Shown one piece after another: positions 1,503 to 42,007 of a stretch of DNA of 64,000 nt (positions within the stretch are counted from its first letter, which is position 1; each line of letters begins with the position of its first letter). A program made the translations under genes and the position numbers. Under the pieces are notes generated by a model. The model ran no database searches. It saw nothing but the letters and a program-made list of their open reading frames with translations, and had not been told where the DNA came from. Source of the stretch: Candidatus Baldrarchaeota archaeon (GTDB lineage Archaea > Asgardarchaeota > Baldrarchaeia > Baldrarchaeales > DXJG01); contig DXJG01000002.1 of assembly GCA_019056805.1 (NCBI GenBank), forward strand, positions 480,515 through 544,514, in the 5' to 3' direction.

Positions 1503-1623
1503 GATAGCATTGCAACAACTTTAAAATCTTTTCAACATTTTCCAAATACATATCCCTGCTTAGTGTTTAAACTATCTTAGATTAATTTGAATAATAAATC
1601 TGAATTTATGAATTTACTGAAGG

Positions 1624-9223: not shown

Positions 9224-10042
9224 ATGCTAAAATTGCCGTTGCAAGACCTTATTGAAACACTGGAACGATTAGGATTCACAAAAAATGAAGCAAAAGTATA
9301 CTTAACATTAGTTATGACAAGAAATCCCCTCAATGCATCAGAAATTAGCAGGAGATCAGGCGTACCAAGAGCAAACGTCTACGAAACCTTAAATAAACTA
9401 GTGGGGAGAGGATTCGTTTTAAGAGAAGCTGCAGGAAGAGGAGCAAGATACGTAGCAGCATCACCCGACCAGATATTCGAAGCTCTCAGAGAAGAACATA
9501 AAAGATATATTCAACTGGTTGAAGAAGCAAGAAAAACATTTGACCAGCTTATGTCAAAAGTTACAAGACCGTTTCCAGGAGAAGCAGCATGGCTTGTAAG
9601 CGGAGAAACCAGAATCGACAACATTCTTAAAGATATTTTAGATACTGCCACACAAAGATTTACATCCTTAATGACACCCGATATAATTACAAGAAACGGA
9701 GAAGGAATCTTTTCAATGCTGAAGAGGAAGGCAGAGGATGGCGTTGAAATTCTCATTTCACTTAAAATTACAAGTGATATTCTTGATAAAGTTAAGGAAT
9801 TAGCAAATTCCGTGTCAGTTTTTCATTGGCAACTTGGAGAAATCCCCATGGGATGCTACGTTAGTGACGGTTCCCGTTGCTTAATGACCCTCGTCGGAAA
9901 ATGGGCTCCAATATTAACATACGACATAGGTATTTGGACCGAAAACCCGGTCTACGCAAAGTCCTTCGAATATTTAACTGAAAAACTTTTAACATTAAAT
10001 GTACCCTTTAAGAAATATCTTGAGGAGGAAGAAAAGGATTGA
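9224..10042 (+). CDS. TrmB-family winged-HTH transcriptional regulator (start at MLKLPLQDL; ORF track gives 9131)
   Basis: LGFTKNEAKVYLTLVMTRNPLNASEISRRSGVPRANVYETLNKLVGRGFV is a TrmB-type HTH. A TATA-like tttataga element sits about 30 bp upstream of 9224. The C-terminal block GCYVSDGSRCLMTLVGKWAPI is shared with the paralog at 28333. The stop overlaps the GTPase start (ATGA). Confidence 0.7.
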   Translation: MLKLPLQDLIETLERLGFTKNEAKVYLTLVMTRNPLNASEISRRSGVPRANVYETLNKLVGRGFVLREAAGRGARYVAASPDQIFEALREEHKRYIQLVEEARKTFDQLMSKVTRPFPGEAAWLVSGETRIDNILKDILDTATQRFTSLMTPDIITRNGEGIFSMLKRKAEDGVEILISLKITSDILDKVKELANSVSVFHWQLGEIPMGCYVSDGSRCLMTLVGKWAPILTYDIGIWTENPVYAKSFEYLTEKLLTLNVPFKKYLEEEEKD

Positions 10043-19283: not shown

Positions 19284-20660
19284 ATGATTAAAAATTATTC
19301 AGAGCTAATTGAAAACGGCTTTACACCCAAGAATAGAGATGCAAGACGTATAATATTAGATTGTATTTTAGCTGCCTTAAATACTGTAGATCCCCCGAAA
19401 GCGATTTTCAACAATGTTAAACTTGAAAATAATACTTTATCAATTGGCCATTACAATTTTAATCTAGCAGACTATAAAAATATCTACGTTCTAGGTGGAG
19501 GAAAAGCAAGCGGCTTAATGGCTGAAACAATCGAAACAATATTACAAGACAGAATAAGCGAAGGAGTTGTAAATGTCCTAAAGGGAACAGAAAAAAGAGT
19601 AAAAACAAAGAAAATCAAAATTAACGGTGCAACGCATCCAATACCAGGAGAAGAGGGGATGAATGGAGTAAAAAATATGCTTGAAATAGCCAAAAAAGCA
19701 GGTAAAAACGATTTAATTATTGTTTTAATTTCAGGAGGCGGTTCAGCTTTAATGCCATACCCAGCTGAACCTGTAACGTTAGAAGAGAAAAAGAAGGTTA
19801 CAGACCTTCTCCTAAAATGTGGCGCTACAATAAATGAAATAAATGCTGTTCGAAAACACATATCAGCCTTTAAAGGAGGTCAACTTGCAAAAGCAGCTTA
19901 CCCAGCGACAGTAATTAGCCTGATCATCTCTGATGTAGTCGGAGACCCCTTAGACGTTATAGCTTCCGGTCCAACTGTACCAGATACCTCTACATTCCAA
20001 GATGCCTATAAAGTCTTGAAAAAATACAATATATTAGATAAAGTTCCTAAAGCTGTAAGAGAAAGAATCGAGTTAGGACTATCAGGTGAAATCGAAGAAA
20101 CTCCAAAGCCAGGCGACAAAGTTTTTGAAAAAGTATACAACGTGATCGTAGCCAGTAATAGAACAGCATGTCTAGCAGCGGTGAAAAAGGCAAAAGAACT
20201 AGGAGCGAATTCTATACTACTTTCAACCTATATCGAAGGAGAAGCAAGACATGTAGGCACGGTTCTTGCAGGAATAGCAAGAGAAATACATGAATATGAA
20301 AATTTGATCAAAAAACCAGCAATTATCGTATGTGGCGGAGAAACAACTGTAACAGTTACTGGAAGCGGTAAAGGTGGTAGAAACCAAGAATTGGCACTAG
20401 GAGCAGCATTCAAAATCTCAGGTTTAGACGGTGTTGCTATTGGCTCAATTGGCACTGATGGTATTGATGGAATTTGTGATGCTGCAGGAGCTATTGTTGA
20501 TGGTCAAACTCTAGAAAGATCGCAGAAATTAGGTCTTGACGCAATGGAATACTTATTGGATAACAATTCTTACGAGTTTTTCACAAAACTTGGAGATGCA
20601 ATTTTCACTGGTCCAACAGGAACAAATGTAAACGACTTGATGATTATTGCCGTTCTATAA
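19284..20660 (+). CDS. glycerate 2-kinase (MOFRL family)
   Basis: The MOFRL/DUF4147 pattern is present, with VLGGGKASGLMAETIE and a C-terminal GSIGTDGIDG block. Confidence 0.8.
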   Translation: MIKNYSELIENGFTPKNRDARRIILDCILAALNTVDPPKAIFNNVKLENNTLSIGHYNFNLADYKNIYVLGGGKASGLMAETIETILQDRISEGVVNVLKGTEKRVKTKKIKINGATHPIPGEEGMNGVKNMLEIAKKAGKNDLIIVLISGGGSALMPYPAEPVTLEEKKKVTDLLLKCGATINEINAVRKHISAFKGGQLAKAAYPATVISLIISDVVGDPLDVIASGPTVPDTSTFQDAYKVLKKYNILDKVPKAVRERIELGLSGEIEETPKPGDKVFEKVYNVIVASNRTACLAAVKKAKELGANSILLSTYIEGEARHVGTVLAGIAREIHEYENLIKKPAIIVCGGETTVTVTGSGKGGRNQELALGAAFKISGLDGVAIGSIGTDGIDGICDAAGAIVDGQTLERSQKLGLDAMEYLLDNNSYEFFTKLGDAIFTGPTGTNVNDLMIIAVL

Positions 20661-20755
20661 TCCTATACGATCTTGTTAAATAAGATTGCAAAAGAAATAT
20701 TATTTTAAATTTGGTTGGATTGTTTGATTAATGATTAAACTTGTTGGTGAATTTT

Positions 20756-22429
20756 ATGAATCTTAAAATCTTAAGAAGCCGAAACGTGACAGAGGGAGTG
20801 GATCGCGCCCCTCATAGATCGCTTTTTAAGGCGTTAGGTCTTACAGATGAAGATTTATCTAAACCTCTTATAGCTGTAGCTAATTCGTGGAATGAAATAG
20901 TACCCGGACATGTACATTTAGAAAAAATCGCAGAAGCAGTTAAAAGGGGTATAAGAACTGCCGGCGGAACACCTTTTGAATTTAATACAATAGCAATATG
21001 TGATGGCATAGCTATGGGACATGAAGGTATGAGAACGCCTCTTCCAAGCAGAGAAATAATAGCTGCATCAATAGAATTAATGATTCAAGCACACATGTTT
21101 GATGCCATGGTACTAATTGCATCCTGCGATAAAATAGTACCTGGAATGCTTATGGCCGCCTGCCGCCTAGATATCCCGTCAATAATGATCACTGGTGGGT
21201 GTATGTTACCCGGTGTATATAAGGGCAAGGAAATAGCACTAAGCCAAGTTTTTGAAGCAGTGGCAAAAGTTAAATCAGGTGAAATGAGTGAAGAAGATCT
21301 TAAACTTTTGGAAGAATCTGCATGTCCAGGACCTGGATCTTGTGCAGGCATGTACACTGCTAATACAATGGCATGCCTTGTTGAAGCCCTTGGTATGTCA
21401 TTACCAGGGTGTGGTGCGTGTCCCGCTGTCTATGCAGAAAAACTCCGTATTGCCGAAGAAAGCGGTAAACAAATTATAAAATTACTAGAAAGGGAAATTA
21501 CCCCTTCAAAAATAATCACTGAAGAGTCTATGGAAAATGCGATTCGTGTTGATATGGCTTTAGGTGGATCAACTAATACAATTTTACATTTAACCGCAGT
21601 TGCACATGAACTTGGAATAAATTTAACACTAGAAAAGTTTGATGAATTGGGACGAAGTACGCCTCACATATGTAATATGAATCCTTCTGGTCCACATTAC
21701 CTAAAAGACCTTTACCTTGCGGGCGGGGTTCCTGCTGTTATGAAAGAATTGAAACCACTATTAAATCTTAATACTTTAACAGTAACTGGGAAAACGTTAA
21801 AGGAAAACCTAAAAAGCGTTCATGTCTTAAATAGAGAAGTTATTCGACCATTAAACAACCCATATCATAAAGAAGGCGGAATTGCTATTCTATTCGGCTC
21901 GCTCGCACCAGAAGGCGCTGTAGTAAAACAATCTGCAATCGACCCAACTATGCAGAAATTCGAAGGAGAAGCTAGAGTTTTTGACAAAGAAGAGGATGCA
22001 GTAAATGCCATACTTAATAATGAGATAGAAAAAGGACAGATTATTGTTATAAGATATGAAGGACCCAAAGGTGGACCAGGAATGCGTGAAATGCTTTCTG
22101 CAACCTCCGCATTAGTTGGTGCTGGCTTAGATAAAAGTGTAGCACTTATTACGGATGGAAGATTTTCTGGAGCAACTAGAGGACCAGCAATAGGCCACGT
22201 TTCACCAGAAGCAATGGATGGAGGTCCAATAGCCATCGTGGAAGATGGAGATATTATCTCGATAAATATACCTGAGAGAAAATTGGACTTAAAGATCTCT
22301 GAAGACATTGTTAAGGAAAGATCTTCAAAATGGAAACCACCAGAACCAAGAGTGAAAAAAGGGTACCTCTATTTATATTCAAAAATAACAGAATCAGCAA
22401 GCAAAGGAGCAATTTGGAAAAAACTCTAA
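20756..22429 (+). CDS. ilvD: dihydroxy-acid dehydratase
   Basis: An N-terminal [12 protein letters not shown] motif and the Fe-S loop [12 protein letters not shown]. Confidence 0.9.
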
Positions 22430-22625
22430 ACTATACACGAATCGCTTCACGCGAAATAGATAAAACTCTCTAACATTTCATCTCTGCATTCAATTATTAT
22501 CTTCTAATTTATCTGGGAGGCTTTAAATTAAGCGAAACTCTTACCAAAAATTTAATAGGAAAAATATTTTATGGCAAATGAATAAAACGTTAAAAATGGC
22601 TAAATTACGATAGAGGTGCTTAAAC

Positions 22626-24029
22626 TTGAACATTAGCTGGGGAAATATTGCAAAGAAAATTTCAGAGATTGTAGGGGAAGAAAATATTACCACATCACTA
22701 GTAGACCTAATAACTTATTCCTCAGATGCATCAATTGATTCAGGAATGCCAAATCTCGTAGTATGGCCAACCACACCAGAACAGATCTCAAAAATAGTGA
22801 AACTAGCTAATGAGTATCATTTTCCCATAATTCCTCGAGGGGCAGGCACAGGTTTAAGTGGTGGAGCAGTTCCCAAATATGGTGGAGTTATTTTAGATTT
22901 ATCACGTATGAATAAAATACTCGAAATAAGTACACAAGATCTTCAAGTCCTTGTAGAAGCTGGAGTTGTAGCAGATGACTTAAATCAAGAACTTGCAAAA
23001 CATGGATTATTTTTCCCACCAGATCCTGCAAGTAGTAGTGCAGCCACAATAGGCGGTATGTTGGCAGAAAATGCAGGAGGAATTCGAGCAGTCAAATATG
23101 GTACTACAAGAGAGTGGGTACTTGGTTTAGAGGTCGTTTTACCGACAGGCGAAGTGCTATGGGTTGGGCGGAGGGCAATGAAGTGGGTTGCCGGATACGA
23201 TCTTGTAAGATTATTTATTGGAAGTGAAGGAACACTAGGAATCATTACAAAAGCTTTGCTAAAGGTTAGACCACTCCCAGAAACCGCATTGTCAGCTTTT
23301 GCAATGTTTAGCAGCCTAGAACAAGCAGTTCATTGCGTATACAAAATTATTATAGAGGGACTAGAACCCTCAAAGGTTGAATTTCTTGACCAAATAACAC
23401 TAGATGCTATTAGCAAATATACTGGAACAAGTTTTCCTCCTGGAGAGGCTGCCATTATAATAGAACTTGATGGTGAAAAATTAAGCGTCGAAAAAAGGCT
23501 CGAAAGACTAATTGAAATATTTAAAGAAGAAAAAGCATTAAGCTATGATGTTGCTAGGACACCCGAAGAAAATATGAGAATATGGCAGGCTAGAAAGGCA
23601 GCTCTTCCGGCATTATCATCAGTAAAACCAACCGTAGTTATAGAAGACGTTACCGTACCCATTAGTAAACTCCCATATATGGTAAAAGTTGTTCAAGAAA
23701 TTTCCAAGAAATTTAATATTCCCGTAGCTACCTTTGGCCACGTAGGTGATGGCAATTTTCACCCATGTATTCTGTTAGATATTAGAAATCGCGATGAAGT
23801 TGAAAGAATGGAAAAATGTGCATTAGAAATTGCTAAGGCTGCAATAAAAGTTGGAGGTACAGTGAGCGGTGAACATGGAATTGGAACATTAAAAATGAAC
23901 ATGTACAGACATGAAGCACCAACAGAACTAGTAAAATTGCTGTTAAAAATAAAGAGAGCGCTGGATCCCAATAACATTATGAACCCCGGAAAAATCTTCC
24001 CCAAAGAATATTTGGAGGGAAATGCATGA
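22626..24029 (+). CDS. FAD-linked oxidase (GlcD / D-lactate dehydrogenase-like)
   Basis: The FAD-binding PCMH domain contains IIPRGAGTGLSGGAVP. A TTG start. Confidence 0.8.
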   Translation: MNISWGNIAKKISEIVGEENITTSLVDLITYSSDASIDSGMPNLVVWPTTPEQISKIVKLANEYHFPIIPRGAGTGLSGGAVPKYGGVILDLSRMNKILEISTQDLQVLVEAGVVADDLNQELAKHGLFFPPDPASSSAATIGGMLAENAGGIRAVKYGTTREWVLGLEVVLPTGEVLWVGRRAMKWVAGYDLVRLFIGSEGTLGIITKALLKVRPLPETALSAFAMFSSLEQAVHCVYKIIIEGLEPSKVEFLDQITLDAISKYTGTSFPPGEAAIIIELDGEKLSVEKRLERLIEIFKEEKALSYDVARTPEENMRIWQARKAALPALSSVKPTVVIEDVTVPISKLPYMVKVVQEISKKFNIPVATFGHVGDGNFHPCILLDIRNRDEVERMEKCALEIAKAAIKVGGTVSGEHGIGTLKMNMYRHEAPTELVKLLLKIKRALDPNNIMNPGKIFPKEYLEGNA

Positions 24030-25150
24030 AATTGCTTCCAGATGACTTTGAAACACAGTTGATTAAATGTTCTGAATGTGGATTTTGCAGGCCAGCTTGT
24101 CCAACTCTCGCAGTCAAGATGACTGAGTCTTGGGGTGCTCGAGGAAGGAACATGATTATAAAAGCTGTAATTGATGGGCGTCTCAAAGTTGATGAAGAAG
24201 TTTTGAAAAGACTTTACAGTTGCGCACTCTGTAAAGCGTGCGAAGTTGTATGTCCATCTAAAGTTAAAGTTGTGGACATAATGGAGATAGTGAGAAGCAA
24301 ACTTACAGAATTAGAACTAGCCCCCTTAAAAGAACATAAAGAAATGATAGATACCATGTTTACCACTGGAAATATTTTTGGAGAATCGTTAGAATTTGAA
24401 AAAACCATTATATCATCTCCAGTTGAAACTTTGCTATTTCCTGGCTGCATGGCTGTAGTAAAAAATCCTGAAATAAAAGATGCTTGCATTAAGCTTCTCG
24501 AAAAGGCGGGAATAAACTTCACAGTTTTCGAGGATAAAAATCTATGTTGCAGCGGTTATGCGAAAATGCTTGGTGTCGAAAAGAAATTTGAGGAATATGT
24601 AGCTAAACAAGCAGAAAAAATATTTTCTCTCGGCATCAAGCAGATTGTTACCCCATGTCCCCTATGTTATACAACCCTTAAAGAAGATTATCCTTTTGAC
24701 GGCAAAATCAAGGTTATACATTTATCGGAACTATTAAGCGACCTACTAAAAAGTGCAAAAATAAATTTTACAAGAAAAGTCGACTCTGTTGTTGTTTTCA
24801 AAGATCCATGCCATCTAGGAAGATGGGAACAGATTTACGATCCGCCAAGATATGTTCTTTCTCAAATTCCCGGAATAAAAATAATTGAATTTACAAAAAA
24901 CCGCGAAAATGCTCAATGCTGCGGTGGAACAATAAGAATACCCTTTATGGACATGCGAACAGAAATGAGCAACAAATTAATAGAAGACGCTGAAAATCTA
25001 GGGGCTGATCTAATAGTTACATCATGTCCATCATGCTTCTTCAACATAAGTTCATCAGCATACTTCTCAGATGTAAAAGTTGTCGATCTCAGCATTTTAG
25101 CAGCATATGCCGCAGAACTGATAGACGAACTGATAATTGGAGGAGAATAG
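24026..25150 (+). CDS. Fe-S oxidoreductase, GlcF-like (2x[4Fe-4S] + two CCG domains)
   Basis: The cluster motifs are CSECGFCRPACP and CALCKACEVVCP. The CCG motifs are CPLCY and SCPSCF. The start overlaps the GlcD-like stop. Confidence 0.8.
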   Translation: MKLLPDDFETQLIKCSECGFCRPACPTLAVKMTESWGARGRNMIIKAVIDGRLKVDEEVLKRLYSCALCKACEVVCPSKVKVVDIMEIVRSKLTELELAPLKEHKEMIDTMFTTGNIFGESLEFEKTIISSPVETLLFPGCMAVVKNPEIKDACIKLLEKAGINFTVFEDKNLCCSGYAKMLGVEKKFEEYVAKQAEKIFSLGIKQIVTPCPLCYTTLKEDYPFDGKIKVIHLSELLSDLLKSAKINFTRKVDSVVVFKDPCHLGRWEQIYDPPRYVLSQIPGIKIIEFTKNRENAQCCGGTIRIPFMDMRTEMSNKLIEDAENLGADLIVTSCPSCFFNISSSAYFSDVKVVDLSILAAYAAELIDELIIGGE

Positions 25151-25383
25151 TATCTATCAAGCTAACTTAAAATCCACAAGACCTCCATATCCCTAGAACA
25201 GATGGCGGCACCGAAAATTCCACCAAAATACATAAAAAACCAGAACATTTTTTATACAGAAAAATTAAACCATGGTAATTCTCGTGAAAAACTTATTTTA
25301 TTATAGCATACGTAAGCCGCTAGTAAAAGTATATATAGCTGAGAGTGTAGTGTAAATGTACGTTTAATCTCTAAAATGAGTCC

Positions 25384-29196: not shown

Positions 29197-29786
29197 TTAT
29201 CTTGTCTTTTTTATCTTCTGCAATCTCAACAATAGCTCTCTGGCTTGGGAGTTTTTTTCGAAGTATTCTCTTACAGGTTTCAAAAATTCTATTAGTGCCT
29301 CTGCCGCGGCATTTTTTAGATCCAATGGGTGAAGTTCACCCTTTAAATATATTTGTTCTAATTCGGGATAACTTTCAACAATTAAATCTCCACCATACTT
29401 TTCGGGTCTATGTATCTCTAATGTAAAATCATCTCGTGCAAATAATAAGTACTTATTTATTTCCATAATCGGATTAAATTCTATATCTTTTGGTGGACAA
29501 TAAGCTTGTTTAATCTTTTTCCTTATATCTTCCGGTGTATCATGAACAAATATACATGTTTCAGGCAGACTTTTACTCATTTTCGTATCTAAAAGAATTT
29601 CTTCTCTTGATTTTCCCGTAACATCCATCCTTCCTACCCCAGCCAAACCTGAGAGAAGAGGTGTATGAACAGCTACCGGCTTTCTTCTACCAAGTTTCGG
29701 TGCAATATCCCTACATAACATGTGGACACTTCTTTGATCCATTCCACCATAAGCTACATCCACATCAAGAAGAAAAACATCTGCTG
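29197..29786 (-). pseudogene. tyrosyl-tRNA synthetase paralog, C-terminal half only; in-frame TAA inside conserved motif, N-terminal half decayed
   Basis: The 188-aa GTG ORF starts GGMDQRSVHMLCRD...KMSKS...NPIMEINKY...RPEKYGGDL...ELHPLDLKNA, closely matching the archaeal TyrRS C-terminal half. The upstream frame continues ...KIFDVLSAR*AADVFLLDVDVAYGGMDQR, which corresponds to the YPxMQ-VDV-GGMDQR region. Further upstream all frames are closed. Confidence 0.5.
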
Positions 29787-29802
29787 CTTAGCGCGCGCTA
29801 AG
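29787..29802. repeat. perfect 16-bp GC-rich palindrome CTTAGCGCGCGCTAAG
   Basis: A conspicuous GC core in AT-rich DNA that supplies TAA in both orientations. It sits at the exact break point of the TyrRS paralog. Confidence 0.9.
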
Positions 29803-30257
29803 AACATCAAAAATCTTACAGTTAAGTCCATTTATCCGCAATATTTTAAAATTCAGGTATTTTTCATATCTTGGGTGGAAGTGATGGTGCTTCAATGTCA
29901 AGAAGATTGCTTCAGAGAAAATATTCAGGACTTACGTAGATTCCTCTTCAGGGCTCTATATAGAAATTAAATTCTAATGTTATCGCGTGGATCTTAAAAA
30001 TTCTTCTTCCTGATATTTCTATTGACCTTTTTGAGCGGAAGATTCCGAATATCACCTTCTGCTCTTAAAATTTAATGCAAGGGTTCTAGAGAACCTTGAT
30101 CTAACAGAAAGAAAACAAAAACTACGTTTCCCATAAGCTAGCCAGATAGTTCCTAGACTTCTATTATGCGAAAATGCTTTAAGTTAAATTTTTCAAAGTT
30201 GTTAAATTAACATGATATTCAGAAAAATAAAAGTTCAATAGAAGGAGGAATATAGAC

Positions 30258-31331
30258 ATGGATGTAGAAGAAAGATTAAATTTGATTAAACGACCACCAA
30301 CAGAAGAAATAATAACAGAAGAGGAGTTAAGAGAGCTTCTAGAAACCACTACCCATCCTAAGCATTACATAGGATTTGAAATTTCCGGTTTATTACACTT
30401 AGGAACTTTAATAATATGTGGTTATAAGATAAATGACTTAGCAGAAGCTGGTGTTGACGTTACAGTTTATCTTGCAGATTGGCATAGTTTTATCAATAAA
30501 AAGCTAGGTGGAAACTGGGAAAACATTCTAAAGGCTGCAAAGTATTATGAGAAAGCTTTTAAATTCTTTTGTCCCAAAGCAAAAATTGTTCTTGGATCAG
30601 AATTATATCATCATAACGATGAGTATTGGAAAGATGTTATAAGATTCTCTTCGCATATAACGTTGGCCAGGAATGTACGTTGCCTAACAATAATGGGAAG
30701 AAGTGAAAAGGAAAAATTAAATTTTGCGCAATATATTTACCCGCCCATGCAAGCTGTGGATATAAAATATCTGGGTGAAGATATACCACATGGTGGGATG
30801 GATCAAAGAAAGGTTCATGTTTTAGCAAGAGAAGTATTTCCAAAACTTGGTTGGAAAAAACCCGTAGCACTTCATCATCATTTGTTAATGGGTTTGGCAG
30901 GACCACCGAGAATAAAAACTAAGGATAAATTAGAGAAAGTAATTGCAATGAAAATGAGTAAAAGCAAACCATGGACATGTATATTTATTCATGACTCTGA
31001 AGAACAAATAAAGAAAAAACTATTAAAAGCATGGTGTCCCGAGAGGCAGGTTGAATTCAACCCTGTATTAGAATTGGTTAAATACATAATTTTTCACGAA
31101 AAAAAGGAGTTCTTAGTTGAGAGGGAAAGTAAACATGGCGGAGATATAGTTTTTTCTTCTTATGAAGAGTTGGAAAAAGAATACATTAAAGGGAATCTCC
31201 ATCCTTTAGATTTGAAACTATCTGTCGCGCGAGAAATCTCAAATATACTAGATCCCATCAGGAAGTATTTTGAAAGACCATCAAATAGGAAATTGTTAAA
31301 CGTTTTTAAAGAAGTTAAAATTATAAGATAG
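30258..31331 (+). CDS. tyrS: tyrosyl-tRNA synthetase (archaeal type), HIGH motif reads HLGT
   Basis: IGFEISGLLHLGTL, YPPMQAVDIKYLGEDIPHGGMDQRKVH and KMSKSKP are present, plus the anticodon-binding C-terminus. Confidence 0.8.
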   Translation: MDVEERLNLIKRPPTEEIITEEELRELLETTTHPKHYIGFEISGLLHLGTLIICGYKINDLAEAGVDVTVYLADWHSFINKKLGGNWENILKAAKYYEKAFKFFCPKAKIVLGSELYHHNDEYWKDVIRFSSHITLARNVRCLTIMGRSEKEKLNFAQYIYPPMQAVDIKYLGEDIPHGGMDQRKVHVLAREVFPKLGWKKPVALHHHLLMGLAGPPRIKTKDKLEKVIAMKMSKSKPWTCIFIHDSEEQIKKKLLKAWCPERQVEFNPVLELVKYIIFHEKKEFLVERESKHGGDIVFSSYEELEKEYIKGNLHPLDLKLSVAREISNILDPIRKYFERPSNRKLLNVFKEVKIIR

Positions 31332-32679
31332 AAACTATATTTTTGATGGTTTTTCCAAAGTCTGTTAATTCCCAACATTCTTGATTATTTTTTCCGCTAA
31401 CTCGTCTAACAATACCGCTTTTTTCCATCGATTTTAGAAGTCGCATAATAAAATAGCCGTTTCTTCTTATGGAATTTTGAAGCTCGAGCGTTGTAAACTT
31501 AGAATTCATAATGTTAAGGTAGCTTAGTACTCTATATTTTCGATGAGATTTTAAAGCATATGCGAGTATATTGAATTGTTTGGAATCCTTAGGAAAGATT
31601 TGCATAATTTCAATTAAGCTGCGCCAGTTCAAGTACGAGGTCAAGATGAAAAGGTTTCTTGCTTTAGATTTTTTAATTTTACCTTTAATGTTCACATGAC
31701 TCAGTATTTTTTCATAATCTTTTATGTACTGTTCATTGCTTTCAAAAATTTGTAATCTCACATTTAAAGAATTGTTTTTGTCTCTATAACAATATACATT
31801 ACCATCTCCAAGTAACAGTCCTTGTAAAAAGAATTTTAGTATGTCCTTATCAGGATTAGATTTTGTTAAATATCTTCTAATTTCATTCATTGCATTATAG
31901 CAAAATTCCGCCAGTAAGGAATTTGTTACCCAAAGTTTAATTGTAAATTCTTTTACTCTTTCTATTTTTCTTGTGAAAATATTTTTGTTTGGAATTCCAA
32001 GTTTGATCAAAAATGACTTTACTTTTTTGACTTGATTAAACTTTGGATTTATTGAGATAGTCGCATTGAATAACGATATATCAATAAAAGTTTTAGATAG
32101 TTGAAGAAAGTCAGAAATGATTGTCAACGACTTATTAGTAAAGCTAAATTCCCTTCCCCTGCGCCGCTTTAGAATGGTTTTTCCCCCTTCCGCTTGTAGA
32201 TAACCCAACAATTTTGCAAAACTCTTCGAAACGTATCTGTTAAACACTATTTCTTTAGGTCTACCTTTAGCTGGATACCACAAAAATATATTATTTTTAT
32301 AACACCTACAACATATAGGAAAACCTGACATAGTTTTTTGGATTAAAAAGTAAAGTAGATCTATAGAATTCCCATTTAACATTTTAGTTGGTTTCTGTGC
32401 AGCTTCCACTTTTTTAATATGCATAGTGATGATTTGACCTTTTTTTAGTTGGAGAGCTTCTCTACACTTTTTGGGAATAATGATTCTCCTTCCCTTGGTG
32501 AAATAAGTAACAAAAAATTTAGTTCCAATATTCGTAGTTATTCCTATCTCCAAAAATCCATTGTTTATCTTATTTTGTATTTGAGCTGGTACCCAAATAC
32601 GATTACCTTTGTATACTAGTTTCAATTTCATACATATTTGTGGTTTTGAATTAATAAAAAGTCCACCATTTTGTATCAA
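31321..32679 (-). CDS. free-standing two-motif LAGLIDADG-family protein with N-terminal AbrB/SpoVT-like repeats and C-terminal winged helix
   Basis: Motif 1 is FAKLLGYLQAEGGK and motif 2 is FLQGLLLGDGNVY, about 105 aa apart. The N-terminus has NRIWVPAQIQ and GRRIIIPKKCREAL (swapped-hairpin-like). The C-terminus has a wHTH (NSIRRNGYFIMRLLKSMEKSGIVRRV). Confidence 0.6.
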   Translation of the reverse strand: MIQNGGLFINSKPQICMKLKLVYKGNRIWVPAQIQNKINNGFLEIGITTNIGTKFFVTYFTKGRRIIIPKKCREALQLKKGQIITMHIKKVEAAQKPTKMLNGNSIDLLYFLIQKTMSGFPICCRCYKNNIFLWYPAKGRPKEIVFNRYVSKSFAKLLGYLQAEGGKTILKRRRGREFSFTNKSLTIISDFLQLSKTFIDISLFNATISINPKFNQVKKVKSFLIKLGIPNKNIFTRKIERVKEFTIKLWVTNSLLAEFCYNAMNEIRRYLTKSNPDKDILKFFLQGLLLGDGNVYCYRDKNNSLNVRLQIFESNEQYIKDYEKILSHVNIKGKIKKSKARNLFILTSYLNWRSLIEIMQIFPKDSKQFNILAYALKSHRKYRVLSYLNIMNSKFTTLELQNSIRRNGYFIMRLLKSMEKSGIVRRVSGKNNQECWELTDFGKTIKNIVSIL

Positions 32680-32841: not shown

Positions 32842-33366
32842 TTATTTCTTCAATCTTTTCAATAATTGATGAATAAGATCTATTGCTGATTCCAATAAGG
32901 AAAGTTCATACTCTATTTGTTTTTTCAATTGTTCCTTATATTCTTTACGAGTAATCGGATCTGATATTTGATTTATTTTCTCGAACCTATTGACTAGCTT
33001 CCTAATCGATGGATATTTACTCAATATTTCCACATTTCTTTCCGTGTAGGGAGTTGATAATTGATGCACGTGTACACCCTTAGGTGAGACTTCCAATAGA
33101 AGTGTTAGATTACGAGATATTTGAAAATATCTTCTAGGCGGCCCCCCTTCCACTGGCTTTATAAAAGAGTCAATTAGTCCACATCGAAGAAGTTTATCTA
33201 TATATTTTTTAAGGACCCACCTATGCATATCCAGCTCTTCTATTAGTTGAGACCAATATTTTGGTTCATTAAGAGCTTGAAGTATTTTTAGACAGTTTCT
33301 ACCCGAAAGAGCCTTTAACAGCTCTATTATGTCCTCTAATTCTTTTTCGGACTCTCTATTGGTCAT
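32842..33366 (-). CDS. winged-HTH transcriptional regulator (ArsR/Phr-like)
   Basis: ALSGRNCLKILQALNEPKYWSQLIEELDMHRWVLKKYIDKLLRCGLI is the HTH. It is divergent from an Hsp20-like gene. Confidence 0.55.
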   Translation of the reverse strand: MTNRESEKELEDIIELLKALSGRNCLKILQALNEPKYWSQLIEELDMHRWVLKKYIDKLLRCGLIDSFIKPVEGGPPRRYFQISRNLTLLLEVSPKGVHVHQLSTPYTERNVEILSKYPSIRKLVNRFEKINQISDPITRKEYKEQLKKQIEYELSLLESAIDLIHQLLKRLKK

Positions 33367-33476: not shown

Positions 33477-33956
33477 GTGGCAGACTGGGAAGATCCCCTA
33501 GAAAAAGAAATAAGAAAAATACTTGAAAAAATGATAAAAAACTTCACGATAATTTCAGAAATCGATCCAGGAGAGGCCCAATTTTTCGGTTATGAACGAA
33601 TAGAAATTACACTACCCAACGGTAAAAAGATAATTAAAGAACGAAGAACGCCCTCAATCAACAACCATCCAATACTGAATGTAATTAAAGAAAGCCAACC
33701 GGAACAAGATGTCTCAAGCTTTCTAAGCGATGTAATCCGAACACCAAACGAAGTTATAGTCATCGCCGAAGTACCTACACTTGACGAAAGAGACGTAAAT
33801 TTTGAAATCAAAGATGGAGCCGTTAGAATTTTCTGCAATGGTGAAATGATCCACGAAATTAAGATAGAAAACGATGTTGATCCTACCTCCATCAAAAAAG
33901 AATTCAAAAACAGAATCTTAGAGCTCAAAATACCCTTAAAAAAGAAATCCAAATAA
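33477..33956 (+). CDS. small heat shock protein (Hsp20/alpha-crystallin family)
   Basis: The alpha-crystallin domain reads VIVIAEVPTLDERDVNFEIKDGAVRIFCNGEM...VDPTSIKKEFKNRILELKIPLKK. A GTG start follows GGAGGTGA. Confidence 0.5.
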   Translation: MADWEDPLEKEIRKILEKMIKNFTIISEIDPGEAQFFGYERIEITLPNGKKIIKERRTPSINNHPILNVIKESQPEQDVSSFLSDVIRTPNEVIVIAEVPTLDERDVNFEIKDGAVRIFCNGEMIHEIKIENDVDPTSIKKEFKNRILELKIPLKKKSK

Positions 33957-40568: not shown

Positions 40569-40894
40569 ATGTAGGATTTAATATTGAGTTATTGAATCTA
40601 GTGTTTCTTAACTCTTACGGTTAAGATTACGTAGGAAAATATAATATTAAATTTTAGGTTCACTTGCCATAGATTGAAGAGCTTAACTTTACGCAATGTT
40701 GAAAGATGATCCGTGTACAAACTAATAATATGTAGTGTTCTTCTGGTTAAATAAACTTTAAAGCATAAAATTAACATGTGAGAAGAGAAGTACAACAAAG
40801 TTAAATGTAATCTTATCTACTGCTTTAGATAATTTAAATCAAAATTATAAATGAATTTAATACTTTAAGCTTTAAATAAAGAGGGAGAAGAATC

Positions 40895-42007
40895 ATGTCA
40901 CTTGTAGAAGGCGGCGAAGTTAAGAAAATTACAGATTATGATAAGCTCATAGAATATTTTGGCGTATCCAGAATAGATCCTATTTTAGATAGATTTAAAG
41001 ATCCTCATAGACTTTTAAGACGAAAAATAGTCTTTGCACATAGAGACTTTGACAAAATACTAGATGAAGTTGATAAAGGCAACATTTTCGCCGTTTTAAG
41101 CGGACGAGGCCCATCAGATAAAATACATTTAGGTCATCTAATTCTCTTCGAACTTAATCTCTATCTTCAAAAAAAGATGGGTGCCAATGTTTATATCCCT
41201 TTATCTGACGATGAAAAATACGTTTTCAAAAAAGTAGAGAGCTTAGAAAAAGCAAAATATTTTGCCTTAGACAACGCCTTAGATATCGTAGCTCTTGGTT
41301 ACGATCCTAACAAGACAGAACTTTTTATTTCTACGGAACTTCCATGGGTATATAAAACTGCAATAAAACTATCACGACACTTAACATATAGTACTGTAAA
41401 GGCTGTTTTCGGATTCAAAGGAGAAAATAACCCAGGAGAAATCTTCTATTCATGCCTTCAAATGGCGCACATACTTTATCCCATCTTGGTACATAAATTA
41501 CCCACCGTGGTTCCAGTTGCTATTGATCAAGATCCTTACATAAGAATTAGTAGAGATGTAGCGGATAAAATTAGAGTATTTAAACCCGCTGGTCTATATC
41601 TTAAGTATCTCAAAGGGTTAACCGGAGAGCCCATGAGTGCAAGTCAACCAGAAACATGTATATTCGCAACAGACAGTCCTGAAGAAGCAAGGAAAAAAAT
41701 CTGGGAGGCATTTACAGGAGGTCAACCAACAATTAAGGAACAGCGAGAGAAAGGCGGAAACCCGGATATATGCGTAGTTTATGAAATGTTAAACGTATAC
41801 TTTGTTGAAGATGACAAAGAAATGGAGAAACTGAGAAACGATTGTATTAGCGGAAATATTCTATGTGGTGAGTGTAAACAAAAATTAACAAATTATGTAA
41901 TTAATTTCCTAGAAAAACACAAAAAGGCAAGAGAAAAATACAGATACAAACTAAAAGACTTCTTCATACATGAAATAGATGAAGATATACTGGCGAAGAT
42001 TCCATAA
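40895..42007 (+). CDS. trpS: tryptophanyl-tRNA synthetase (archaeal/eukaryotic type)
   Basis: SGRGPSDKIHLGHL (HIGH) and GEPMSASQP (KMSAS) are present. Confidence 0.85.
   Translation: MSLVEGGEVKKITDYDKLIEYFGVSRIDPILDRFKDPHRLLRRKIVFAHRDFDKILDEVDKGNIFAVLSGRGPSDKIHLGHLILFELNLYLQKKMGANVYIPLSDDEKYVFKKVESLEKAKYFALDNALDIVALGYDPNKTELFISTELPWVYKTAIKLSRHLTYSTVKAVFGFKGENNPGEIFYSCLQMAHILYPILVHKLPTVVPVAIDQDPYIRISRDVADKIRVFKPAGLYLKYLKGLTGEPMSASQPETCIFATDSPEEARKKIWEAFTGGQPTIKEQREKGGNPDICVVYEMLNVYFVEDDKEMEKLRNDCISGNILCGECKQKLTNYVINFLEKHKKAREKYRYKLKDFFIHEIDEDILAKIP

What the first reader, a model, noticed from the sequence alone, without database searches (positions are those of the whole stretch)
31321..32679. 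Free-standing LAGLIDADG protein fused to AbrB-like N-terminal repeats and a C-terminal winged helix - likely domesticated homing endonuclease
Two well-spaced LAGLIDADG motifs (LLGYLQAEGG and LLLGDGNV, about 105 aa apart) define a monomeric double-motif endonuclease core. It is not inside an intein or intron. It is flanked by two tandem swapped-hairpin-like segments (RIWVPAQIQ and RIIIPKKCREAL) and a wHTH tail. It is co-oriented with an upstream wHTH regulator and convergently overlaps tyrS by 11 nt. This architecture suggests co-option as a DNA-binding regulator, or a novel mobile element.
Basis: partly seen in the sequence, partly recalled or inferred. Interest (0 to 1): 0.7.

Follow-up and report, generated by a model that had tools for sequence, protein, structure and literature searches.

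The report
Free-standing LAGLIDADG endonuclease beside tyrS
This gene encodes an undescribed DNA-cutting enzyme of the homing-endonuclease type, carrying two extra DNA-binding modules; in tiny DPANN archaea it almost always sits against the tyrosyl-tRNA synthetase gene and looks more like a selfish mobile gene than a tamed regulator.

Summary
The ORF is real: 31321..32631 on the minus strand, 436 aa from the ATG. Sequence profiles and a confident structure model confirm three modules:
- a single-chain swapped-hairpin (AbrB/PhS018-like) barrel;
- a two-motif, I-DmoI-like LAGLIDADG core;
- a C-terminal winged helix.

There is no intein or intron around it, and it overlaps tyrS by 11 nt.

It belongs to an undescribed DPANN family of at least 320 clusters at 50% identity.
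- Both catalytic positions are acidic in 102 of 103 full-length members.
- Every family locus with usable flank lies next to tyrS, or, in a sister subfamily, next to the ribosomal P1-L10-L1 operon.
- Only 1 of 80 related tyrS loci carries it.
- Its divergence is uncorrelated with that of the adjacent TyrRS.
- In the sister species it carries a frameshift seen in four assemblies and, separately, an IS insertion.
- tyrS plus this gene show about 3-fold lower synonymous divergence than the left flank, and a decayed second tyrS lies beside them.

Best reading (about 0.5): an active, free-standing homing-type endonuclease gene tied to the tyrS locus. A regulator that has lost cleavage activity is disfavoured. 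Cleavage, target site and homing are untested.

The parts
31321..32631 (-). CDS of the LAGLIDADG family protein ('FAM'), 436 aa from the ATG.
   Evidence: ORF list. Homologues and P0001 start at M17. Residues 1-13 have pLDDT below 50. dN/dS is 0.21-0.22 against the sister species.
32395..32631 (-). N-terminal single-chain swapped-hairpin beta-barrel. It is two AbrB-like half-repeats (..GNRIWVPAQIQ.. and ..GRRIIIPKKCREAL..), PhS018-like, and a presumed DNA-binding module.
32224..32394 (-). Beta-rich linker region before LAGLIDADG helix 1, with conserved D107, L109, G139 and R148 (452-aa numbering).
   Evidence: Alignment A1. Family-profile positions 118-196 match the endonuclease part of the TliVMA intein (7QSU, E 6e-5). 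Strands are predicted in the model.
31594..32223 (-). Two-domain (pseudo-dimeric) LAGLIDADG endonuclease core.
32179..32211 (-). LAGLIDADG motif 1, LLGYLQAEGGK. E164 is the putative metal-binding catalytic residue, and K167 sits three residues after it, as K120 follows E117 in I-DmoI.
   Evidence: G159 103/103, E164 97 E + 6 D, K167 96/103 across full-length family members. Coordinates checked by translation.
31798..31827 (-). LAGLIDADG motif 2, LQGLLLGDGN. D292 is the putative second catalytic residue.
   Evidence: D292 97 D + 5 E, G291 94/103, G293 97/103. This motif aligns to I-DmoI motif 1 (D21 region), and E313 aligns to I-DmoI Q42.
31324..31584 (-). C-terminal winged helix-turn-helix domain.
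31321..31331 (.). 11-nt overlap of the 3' ends of FAM and tyrS-A, which are convergent.
   Evidence: The same 11-nt overlap occurs in L010, where FAM is only 38% identical. In all 10 convergent loci examined the ends overlap by 8-17 nt or are 3-11 nt apart.
30258..31331 (+). tyrS-A, the intact tyrosyl-tRNA synthetase gene (357 aa). It is the invariant neighbour of this subfamily and the presumed locus of action.
   Evidence: NF006330 434 bits against a cut-off of 220. Adjacency in every subfamily-1 locus that extends far enough past FAM. Its dS against the sister species is 0.44, the same as FAM (0.45) and about 3-fold below the left flank.
29197..29787 (-). Remnant of a second, different tyrS (psi-tyrS-B). 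Only residues ~173 to the end remain. It lies divergent to tyrS-A.
   Evidence: TyrRS HMM positions 173-365 score 240 bits, and nothing upstream matches in any frame. The sister species keeps HMM positions 50-365 with a degenerate 5' end. It is 48% identical to tyrS-A.

Best explanation
The gene encodes a catalytically competent, monomeric (two-motif) LAGLIDADG DNA endonuclease of the homing type. It is free-standing, meaning it is not inside an intron or intein, and it carries two accessory DNA-binding modules: an N-terminal swapped-hairpin barrel and a C-terminal winged helix.

Proposed mechanism:
1. The two LAGLIDADG helices pack at the domain interface and present E164 and D292 to bound divalent metal.
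2. The beta-sheet saddle reads a long asymmetric site. The barrel and the wHTH bind flanking DNA, extending or anchoring recognition.
3. The enzyme makes a double-strand break in the tyrS locus of genomes that lack the gene.
4. Recombinational repair copies the endonuclease gene together with adjoining tyrS sequence. This keeps the gene locked to tyrS while it spreads and decays patchily across DPANN lineages. A sister subfamily is locked in the same way to the 3' end of the ribosomal P1-L10-L1 operon.

Shown here: fold, motifs, family-wide conservation of active-site residues, fixed genomic address, patchy presence, uncoupling from the neighbour's phylogeny, decay in the sister species, and a step in synonymous divergence at the cassette border.

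Inferred: nuclease activity, the identity of the target site, and homing itself.
For: 1. Fold and motifs. Pfam LAGLIDADG_3 is above its cut-off. The model has pLDDT 86.9. I-DmoI and intein endonucleases are the best structural matches.

2. Active site conserved across a deep family. There are 320 clusters at E<=1e-3 and 91 at E<=1e-30. Both catalytic positions are acidic in 102 of 103 full-length members, K167 is kept in 96/103 and N182 in 102/103, and position 313 (aligned to I-DmoI Q42) is D or E in 94/103.

3. Fixed address.
- About 14 distinct subfamily-1 lineages have usable flank. All lie next to tyrS: convergent with tightly abutting 3' ends in 10 loci, divergent in 5, tandem in 1.
- The one further lineage, L024, is cut by its contig end before tyrS could appear.
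- Five subfamily-2 lineages are convergent with rpP1-L10-L1.

4. Patchy presence.
- Of 80 metagenomic loci holding the closest tyrS relatives, only the sister species has the gene.
- On a TyrRS tree, loci with the gene are scattered among loci without it.
- L034 shares the SerRS-permease-tyrS-betaCASP gene order with L003 (which has the gene) and has tyrS 77% identical to the window's, yet lacks it.
- Only 13 hits were found in 185,579 GTDB species genomes, using a search pattern that fits 26% of the family.

5. Uncoupled histories. FAM and TyrRS identity matrices are uncorrelated (r=0.05, Mantel p=0.32). L019 against L022 gives FAM 53% but TyrRS 28%, and all these TyrRS are confirmed equivalogs.

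6. Life-cycle signs.
- dN/dS is 0.21 against the sister species, so the gene was under selection.
- In that species it carries a 1-nt frameshift found identically in four independent assemblies.
- In a 99.2%-identical variant it instead carries an IS607/TnpB insertion that removes the wHTH.

7. Cassette signature.
- tyrS-A and FAM share dS 0.44-0.45, against 1.1-1.6 for six left-flank genes. The proportion of synonymous differences (pS) is 0.34 (bootstrap CI 0.29-0.38) against 0.66 (0.60-0.72).
- The step lies at the border with a decaying second tyrS. That remnant's damage in the sister species is concentrated at the GFEPSG/HIGH-motif codons.
Against: - No cleavage assay, target site or clean 'empty site' pair from one species was obtained.
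- Persistence at one address across several DPANN phyla, with purifying selection, also fits a long-lived host function.
- tyrS 3' ends are not conserved at the DNA level between distant carriers. A single conserved homing site at the junction is therefore unlikely, and the target has to be postulated elsewhere or to co-evolve.
- No co-conversion signal was visible in the tyrS 3' tails.
- The family was not found on viral contigs, so no vehicle for transfer is identified.
- FAM evolves about 4-5 times faster than TyrRS. Many pairwise identities are near saturation, so the matrix test is weak apart from a few strong conflicts.
- The dS step could partly reflect gene-specific codon constraints, or replacement of the left flank rather than of the cassette.
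- Absence within 5 kb of tyrS does not prove absence from a genome.
Confidence: 0.5

Rival explanations
1. Domesticated nuclease or DNA-binding factor with a host function tied to translation-gene loci. The protein would be retained by the cell, for example to bind or nick DNA at the tyrS or rpP1 3' ends and control expression, termination or recombination there, and would be inherited vertically with frequent losses.
For: - The address is conserved across Aenigmatarchaeota, Woesearchaeota, Nanoarchaeota and Pacearchaeota, including an identical 11-nt overlap with tyrS in loci whose FAM is only 38% identical.
- Purifying selection acts on the gene (dN/dS 0.21).
- Three DNA-binding modules are typical of regulators.
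- There is no association with viruses.
Against: - Only 1 of 80 related tyrS loci carries the gene.
- It is inactivated twice in the sister species without loss of the neighbours.
- Convergent neighbours share no promoter.
- FAM and TyrRS histories conflict (L019/L022: 53% against 28%).
- Strict retention of catalytic residues is not needed for mere binding.
Confidence: 0.25
2. A WhiA-like, catalytically inert transcription factor: a LAGLIDADG scaffold reused purely for DNA binding, together with the HTH.
For: - The domain order (LAGLIDADG core then C-terminal HTH) resembles WhiA.
- LAGLIDADG_WhiA gives weak Pfam hits in 8 of 66 members.
Against: - The WhiA Pfam model scores 10.8 bits against a cut-off of 23.2 for this protein.
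- Both acidic residues plus K167 and N182 are conserved family-wide. WhiA lacks them (my own knowledge).
- The distribution is patchy, whereas WhiA is near-universal in its lineages (my own knowledge; patchiness).
Confidence: 0.07
3. An RNA maturase-like cofactor. The protein would bind RNA and help process the tyrS mRNA mini-intron or other introns, as LAGLIDADG maturases do for group I introns.
For: In five lineages where the gene lies divergently upstream of tyrS, tyrS carries a 21-31-nt BHB-like intron.
Against: - The window's own tyrS and all nine other convergent neighbours have no intron.
- BHB introns are cut by the splicing endonuclease and need no maturase (established knowledge).
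- Subfamily 2 sits next to ribosomal protein genes.
- Catalytic DNA-cleavage residues are conserved.
Confidence: 0.05
4. A toxin-antitoxin or defence-type nuclease: an AbrB/MazE-like domain fused to a nuclease that attacks foreign DNA.
For: - Weak MazE_antitoxin/AbrB hits, and JGI names such as 'antitoxin component of YhaV-PrlF'.
- A weak PADLOC 'homing endonuclease' hit (E 0.009).
Against: - No partner toxin or defence genes are conserved nearby.
- The fixed address next to tyrS or rpP1 is not typical of defence islands.
- The PADLOC hit is marginal and reflects only the LAGLIDADG domain.
Confidence: 0.05

Closest known systems
I-DmoI and related archaeal monomeric LAGLIDADG homing endonucleases (I-Tsp061I, I-PorI type)
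   Same: - One acidic residue per motif.
- A Lys three residues after the Glu (K167, compare I-DmoI K120), and an active-site position aligned to Q42.
- Archaeal origin.
   Different: - Those enzymes are encoded inside rRNA introns and are about 190-200 aa with no extra domains.
- This one is free-standing and 436 aa, with an N-terminal swapped-hairpin barrel and a C-terminal wHTH.
- Its motif order is E then D, the reverse of I-DmoI.
- It resides beside a protein-coding gene (tyrS) in DPANN genomes.
Free-standing homing endonucleases of phages (T4 Seg and Mob proteins; F-CphI next to the intron-containing psbA: 'intronless' and 'collaborative' homing)
   Same: - A stand-alone endonuclease gene wedged tightly between or against conserved genes.
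- Patchy presence among relatives.
- A modular build of catalytic domain plus separate DNA-binding modules.
- In five lineages, an ORF-less intron in the adjacent gene close to the endonuclease gene.
   Different: - The phage enzymes are GIY-YIG or HNH proteins and the introns are group I (my own knowledge).
- Here the catalytic domain is LAGLIDADG, the host is a cellular archaeon, and the intron is a 21-31-nt BHB-like intron.
- Homing is not shown.
WhiA (bacterial LAGLIDADG + HTH transcription factor)
   Different: - WhiA has lost the catalytic residues and is near-universal in Gram-positive bacteria (my own knowledge). This family keeps the residues and is patchy.
- The HTH type differs: MarR/AspA-like winged helix here.
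- This family has an extra N-terminal barrel.
- The Pfam WhiA model scores below its cut-off.
Intein-borne LAGLIDADG endonucleases (PI-PfuI, PI-SceI, TliVMA) and yeast HO
   Same: - Accessory DNA-recognition regions extend the target, as in PI-SceI.
- HO is a precedent for a free-standing derivative with an added DNA-binding domain.
   Different: - No Hint or splicing blocks.
- The accessory modules are an AbrB-like barrel and a wHTH, rather than a Hint-derived DNA-recognition region or a zinc finger.
PhS018 / AbrB / MraZ swapped-hairpin barrels
   Different: Here the barrel is fused to a nuclease. No such fusion turned up in the literature searched.

Membership tests
LAGLIDADG endonuclease superfamily (two-motif, monomeric) | Two LAGLIDADG helices with the alpha-beta-beta-alpha-beta-beta-alpha fold repeated twice | tested here: met
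   [not shown]
LAGLIDADG endonuclease superfamily (two-motif, monomeric) | A conserved acidic residue at the end of each motif (metal ligands) | tested here: met
   E164 and D292. Both positions are acidic in 102 of 103 full-length family members.
LAGLIDADG endonuclease superfamily (two-motif, monomeric) | Mg2+-dependent site-specific double-strand cleavage leaving 4-nt 3' overhangs | not testable with these tools
   Needs purified protein and candidate substrates.
Homing endonuclease gene (mobile, selfish) | Fixed genomic address combined with presence/absence polymorphism among relatives | tested here: met
   Always adjacent to tyrS or rpP1 where the flank allows a call. Absent from 79 of 80 related tyrS loci and scattered on the TyrRS tree. 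Caveat: no FAM-less haplotype of the same species was found.
Homing endonuclease gene (mobile, selfish) | Phylogeny incongruent with host or flanking genes, showing horizontal spread | tested here: inconclusive
   The identity matrices are uncorrelated and there are strong conflicts such as L019/L022. A dS step lies at the cassette border. However, FAM identities are near saturation and no species tree was available.
Homing endonuclease gene (mobile, selfish) | Degenerate copies, as in the invasion-decay-loss cycle | tested here: met
   A frameshift shared by four assemblies and an independent IS insertion in the sister species.
Homing endonuclease gene (mobile, selfish) | Cleaves the allele lacking the gene at or near its own insertion site, followed by gene conversion | not testable with these tools
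   The target is unknown. Candidates are the tyrS HIGH-motif region and the tyrS 3' junction.
Intron- or intein-encoded endonuclease | ORF embedded in a self-splicing intron, a BHB intron or an intein (Hint blocks) | tested here: not met
   Stand-alone ORF with its own start and stop. No Intein_splicing or Hint hits. No Rfam intron in the window.
WhiA family | Match to the WhiA LAGLIDADG and HTH models | tested here: not met
   PF14527 scores 10.8 bits against a cut-off of 23.2. The C-terminal domain matches MarR/AspA-type winged helices.
WhiA family | Loss of catalytic acidic residues | tested here: not met
   The residues are retained family-wide.
AbrB/SpoVT/MazE swapped-hairpin domain | Beta-alpha-beta-beta half-barrels that interdigitate into a swapped-hairpin barrel | tested here: met
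   [not shown]
Winged helix (MarR/PadR/AspA-like) | Three helices followed by a beta-hairpin wing at the C-terminus | tested here: met
   [not shown]

The most novel reading that the evidence does not exclude
The family is the trans-acting half of an archaeal 'collaborative homing' system. The free-standing LAGLIDADG endonuclease would cut tyrS at the codons for the GFEPSG/HIGH motif in naive genomes. Carriers would be protected either by a tiny (21-31 nt) BHB-like intron that splits that site, or by a divergent resistant tyrS allele that travels with the endonuclease gene as a cassette.

Support:
- In all five lineages where the gene lies divergently upstream of tyrS, tyrS is interrupted exactly after ..EPSG by an insert.
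- Removing the insert restores a full-length ORF (359 and 374 aa), and its exon-intron helix covaries.
- The nearest TyrRS relatives of one of these (L099 and L102, 68% identical) lack both the intron and the endonuclease gene.
- In the window's sister species, the decaying second tyrS next to the tyrS-A + endonuclease cassette is damaged at that same site while its remaining ~320 codons are intact.

If true, this would be the first free-standing homing endonuclease system in cellular Archaea. It would also offer a route by which BHB introns and LAGLIDADG genes come together.
Probability: 0.2. Interest if true: 0.85.

Novelty: new variant of a known kind. Interest (0 to 1): 0.62.

Why it matters
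- **A gap in archaeal biology.** To my knowledge, archaeal LAGLIDADG endonucleases are known from rRNA introns and inteins. The literature searches here found no described free-standing, locus-specific family with added DNA-binding modules in cellular archaea.
- **A possible driver of gene replacement.** If the enzyme is active, it is a candidate agent of gene conversion and xenologous replacement of an essential aminoacyl-tRNA synthetase gene in DPANN archaea. Such genes are reputed to transfer horizontally often (my own knowledge). The window itself carries one intact tyrS and one decaying tyrS next to the endonuclease gene.
- **A new nuclease scaffold.** It is a natural three-module, long-site nuclease (barrel + meganuclease + winged helix) that could interest genome engineers.
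- **A clean evolutionary test case.** The side observation of a BHB-like mini-intron in tyrS next to one branch of the family gives a concrete, testable case for how introns and homing endonuclease genes become associated.

Tried and rejected
- **Palindrome as target.** TCGCGCGA at 31225 (in tyrS) is unique to the window and absent from the sister species. The 18-nt inverted repeat flanking the gene junction (31268-85 and 31342-59) is degraded in L031. Both are treated as chance.
- **Upstream wHTH gene as functional partner.** It is a neighbour only in the closest relatives (L009, L031, L114-117) and not in any other family locus. It is more likely paired with the divergent HSP20-like gene (weak Phr-like hit).
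- **Intein remnant.** No Hint blocks were found. The beta-rich N-terminus is AbrB/PhS018-like.
- **Viral or mobile-element carriage.** No relatives on IMG/VR contigs. PHROGs and PADLOC gave only generic endonuclease or HTH hits.
- **Clean empty site.** tyrS loci at 77-78% identity (L033, L034) lack the gene but also differ on both flanks, so insertion borders cannot be read.
- **Co-conversion of tyrS 3' tails among carriers.** No signal.
- **Missing exon 1 of psi-tyrS-B (split gene or long intron).** None found in the window or in L114 in six frames.
- **Technical failures.** The exact look-up of P0001 returned no contig. The afdb50 fold library was unavailable. An attempted ACS comparison with L114 was non-homologous and was discarded; it had contaminated the pooled right-flank dS figure, so only the per-gene values for wHTH and HSP20 are used.
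Full report
**1.

- The minus-strand ORF 31321..32679 exists as 452 aa from a TTG. Homologues, the public gene model (P0001, 436 aa, 100% identical) and the disordered first 13 residues of the model all point to the ATG at 32631 as the real start.
- The two motifs, LLGYLQAEGG (aa 157) and LLLGDGNV (aa 288), are 131 residues apart, not about 105.
- Pfam LAGLIDADG_3 scores above its gathering cut-off (26.2 against 22.5). AbrB/MazE and HTH hits are sub-threshold for the single sequence.
- tyrS (30258..31331, +) is a genuine tyrosine-tRNA ligase (NF006330, 434 bits). The two genes overlap tail to tail by 11 nt.

**2. Architecture**

An AlphaFold2 model built from 13 sequences is confident (pLDDT 86.9, pTM 0.84).

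- **C-terminus.** The last 85 residues superpose on MarR- and AspA-type winged helices.
- **Profile support.** A 66-member family profile searched against PDB sequences gives the same three assignments: 2GLW E 3e-6, AspA E 6e-6, TliVMA endonuclease region E 6e-5.
- **Per-member Pfam scans.** LAGLIDADG_3 is found in 49 of 66 members, MazE_antitoxin in 10 and HTH_45 in 10. None has an intein-splicing domain.

**3. The family**

- A word-indexed search found only 12 relatives.
- A profile search of 1.84 billion cluster representatives found 320 clusters (E<=1e-3), of which 91 have E<=1e-30. Most of the best hits span the whole 430-500 aa architecture.
- Named genome hits are all DPANN or probable mis-binned DPANN: Aenigmatarchaeota, Woesearchaeota, Nanoarchaeota and Pacearchaeota.
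- Sources name it only 'hypothetical' or 'AbrB family'. Four literature searches aimed at this kind of protein found no description of it.

**4. The active site is conserved**

Among the 103 family members of at least 340 aa:

| Position | Conservation |
|---|---|
| G159 | 103/103 |
| E164 | 97 E + 6 D |
| K167 | 96/103 |
| N182 | 102/103 |
| D292 | 97 D + 5 E |
| Position 313 | 94 D or E |

- 102 of 103 have acidic residues at both catalytic positions.
- K167 lies three residues after the Glu, as K120 follows E117 in I-DmoI.
- Position 313 aligns with I-DmoI Q42. Q42 and K120 are the residues mutated in the I-DmoI nicking variants listed.
- From my own knowledge, domesticated LAGLIDADG proteins such as WhiA and many maturases have lost these residues. 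Their retention across so deep a family argues for a catalytic function.

**5. A fixed address**

- *Subfamily 1.* In every subfamily-1 locus with usable flank, the gene lies next to tyrS.
  - Convergent with closely abutting 3' ends (8-17 nt overlap or 3-11 nt gap): window, L031, L010, L013, L018, L019, L022, L023, L025, L026.
  - Divergent: L001, L021, L003, L111, L113.
  - Tandem: L020.
- *Subfamily 2.* Members about 26% identical (L005, L015/L030, L027, L028, L029) always sit convergent to the ribosomal P1-L10-L1 operon.
- The adjacent TyrRS proteins are true equivalogs even when only 28-35% identical to one another.

**6. Presence is patchy**

- The 80 metagenomic loci holding the closest relatives of the window's TyrRS (43-96% identity) were fetched with 5-kb flanks. 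Only L031, the sister species, carries the gene.
- On a neighbour-joining TyrRS tree, loci with the gene occupy about nine separate positions among loci lacking it.
- L034 has TyrRS 77% identical to the window's and shares the SerRS-permease-tyrS-betaCASP block with L003, which carries the gene. L034 has an aminopeptidase gene in the corresponding slot.
- Only 13 loci were found among 185,579 species-representative genomes, with a search pattern that fits about a quarter of the family.

**7. Histories are uncoupled**

- Pairwise identities of the family protein and of the adjacent TyrRS over 12 loci do not correlate (r = 0.05; Mantel p = 0.32).
- Part of this is saturation. The protein evolves 4-5 times faster than TyrRS: 81% against 96% identity to the sister species.
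- Some conflicts cannot be explained that way. L019 against L022 gives 53% for the family protein but 28% for TyrRS. L023 against L025 gives 56% against 35%.
- Either tyrS is repeatedly replaced in place, or the endonuclease gene repeatedly lands next to tyrS. Both imply a mechanistic tie to the locus.

**8. The window's own locus records a replacement**

- *A decaying second tyrS.* Immediately left of tyrS-A lies the remnant of a second, different tyrS (psi-tyrS-B, 29197..29787, minus strand; 48% identical to tyrS-A). Only residues ~173 to the end survive.
- *Same order in the sister species.* Five loci from different samples (L114-L117 and L009) show the order TrmB, psi-tyrS-B, tyrS-A, FAM, wHTH, HSP20.
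- *Damage concentrated at one site.* In the sister species psi-tyrS-B is intact over ~320 codons, from the HIGH motif onward. Its first ~49 codons are wrecked, including a ~10-nt deletion at the GFEPSG codons.
- *A step in synonymous divergence (window against L114).*

| Gene(s) | dS |
|---|---|
| Six left-flank genes, including psi-tyrS-B | 1.1-1.6 |
| tyrS-A | 0.44 |
| FAM | 0.45 |
| wHTH | 0.81 |
| HSP20-like | 0.60 |

- Bootstrap intervals for the proportion of synonymous differences (pS) do not overlap: 0.60-0.72 for the left flank against 0.29-0.38 for tyrS-A plus FAM.
- A recombination or transfer border therefore coincides with the junction between the dead tyrS and the tyrS-A + endonuclease pair. 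This is what a cassette brought in by break repair would leave.
- *Caveats.* Gene-specific codon constraints could contribute, and which side was replaced is not known.

**9. Signs of a decay phase**

- Over the divergence from the sister species the gene was under purifying selection. dN/dS is 0.21, compared with 0.04 for tyrS, 0.11 for the wHTH gene and 0.17 for the HSP20-like gene.
- Within that species it carries a 1-nt deletion at about codon 60. The deletion is identical in four independent assemblies, so it is not a sequencing error.
- A variant with 99.2% nucleotide identity lacks the deletion. Instead an IS607-type element (serine recombinase plus TnpB) is inserted in its 3' end, removing the wHTH.
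- Two independent knock-outs with intact neighbours show the gene is dispensable there. This fits the invasion-decay-loss cycle of homing endonuclease genes.

**10. Side finding that may bear on mechanism**

- In all five lineages with the divergent arrangement, tyrS is interrupted immediately after ..GFEPSG by 29, 29, 31, 21 or 22 nt. The insert carries stop codons or shifts the frame.
- Removing it restores full-length TyrRS ORFs of 359 and 374 aa.
- The insert folds as a relaxed bulge-helix-bulge (BHB), the RNA motif cut by the archaeal splicing endonuclease.
  - An exon-intron helix covaries: exon AGU pairs with intron ACAC or CCAC, and exon AGC pairs with ACGC or CCGA.
  - There is also an inner hairpin and an outer exon-exon helix.
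- None of the ~90 other tyrS genes examined has the insert.
- The nearest TyrRS relatives of L001 (L099 and L102, 68% identical) lack both the intron and the endonuclease gene.
- This resembles phage 'collaborative homing', in which a free-standing endonuclease gene sits next to a gene whose ORF-less intron splits the cleavage site. Together with the damage at the same codons in psi-tyrS-B, it nominates the HIGH-motif region as a candidate target.
- This is inference. The five lineages may represent one or two evolutionary events.

**11. Verdict**

- The most likely explanation (about 0.5) is an active, free-standing homing-type LAGLIDADG endonuclease whose accessory barrel and winged helix extend DNA recognition. 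It would be maintained at the tyrS locus by break-induced gene conversion.
- A domesticated host factor acting at translation-gene loci remains a serious rival (about 0.25). It is supported by the very old and precise address and by purifying selection.
- A WhiA-like inert regulator, a maturase and a defence nuclease are each unlikely.
- The kind (LAGLIDADG endonuclease) is known. New here are the three-module architecture, the free-standing state in cellular archaea and the locus lock to tyrS or rpP1, hence 'new variant of a known kind'.
- Nothing about activity, target or homing has been shown. The decisive experiments are listed separately.

Noticed in passing
window 29197-29787 (-), with the spacer 29788-30257: Remnant of a second, different tyrS (48% identical to the intact one), divergent to tyrS-A. 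Only residues ~173 to the end survive. The sister species (L114 4362-5320) keeps ~320 intact codons with a wrecked 5' end. dN/dS of the shared part is 0.06, so inactivation is recent or the fragment is still constrained.
   Followed up: yes
L001 ~9730-9760 (-); L021; L111/L112; L003/L004; L113: A 21-31-nt BHB-like mini-intron interrupts tyrS exactly after the GFEPSG codons (HIGH motif) in five Aenigmatarchaeota-type lineages. Removing it restores full-length ORFs, and the exon-intron helix shows a compensatory U-A to C-G change. I found no report of a tyrS intron in Archaea in the searched literature.
   Followed up: partly
window 30258-31331 (+), compared with L032-L074: The window's intact TyrRS is 60-78% identical to TyrRS on contigs spanning 28-56% GC. 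Many of these (about 39-52% GC) have a different gene order, with trpS and pheS-pheT upstream of tyrS and Toprim-domain and PolB genes downstream in L036. It is only 42-45% identical to TyrRS of other Aenigmatarchaeota-type loci (L001, L003). This suggests xenologous replacement of tyrS in this lineage.
   Followed up: partly
L009 1978-3888: An IS607-type element (MerR-like serine recombinase plus a Cas12f/TnpB-like gene) is inserted into the 3' end of the endonuclease gene, between it and tyrS, in a strain 99.2% identical to L114-L117.
   Followed up: partly
window 32842-33366 (-) and 33477-33956 (+): A winged-helix gene with a weak Phr (archaeal heat-shock regulator) hit and a Csa3-like wHTH hit is divergently paired with a weak HSP20-like gene. 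The pair is conserved in the sister species. It is probably a heat-shock regulator and target pair, unrelated to the endonuclease gene.
   Followed up: no
L001 947-6382 (-): In an Aenigmarchaeota MAG that carries a family member, the nearby topoisomerase gene (1811 aa) contains two inteins with LAGLIDADG domains. The window's homologous gene (1621-3756) is far shorter, consistent with having no intein, though this was not checked directly.
   Followed up: no
window 1-64000: ARAGORN finds no tRNA gene and Rfam (gathering thresholds) no RNA family in 64 kb. This may be chance, or may reflect intron-containing or split tRNA genes that escape standard detection.
   Followed up: no
window 40880-42004 (+); L018 2087-3196; L024: The window gene is a TrpRS. 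In L018 its homologue lies directly upstream of the endonuclease gene, so that gene is sandwiched between trpS and tyrS. In L024 trpS likewise flanks it, but the contig ends before tyrS could appear.
   Followed up: no
window 20657-25375, compared with L114 970-985: About 4.7 kb present in the window between two genes that are adjacent in the sister species. This is an insertion or deletion of unknown content.
   Followed up: no
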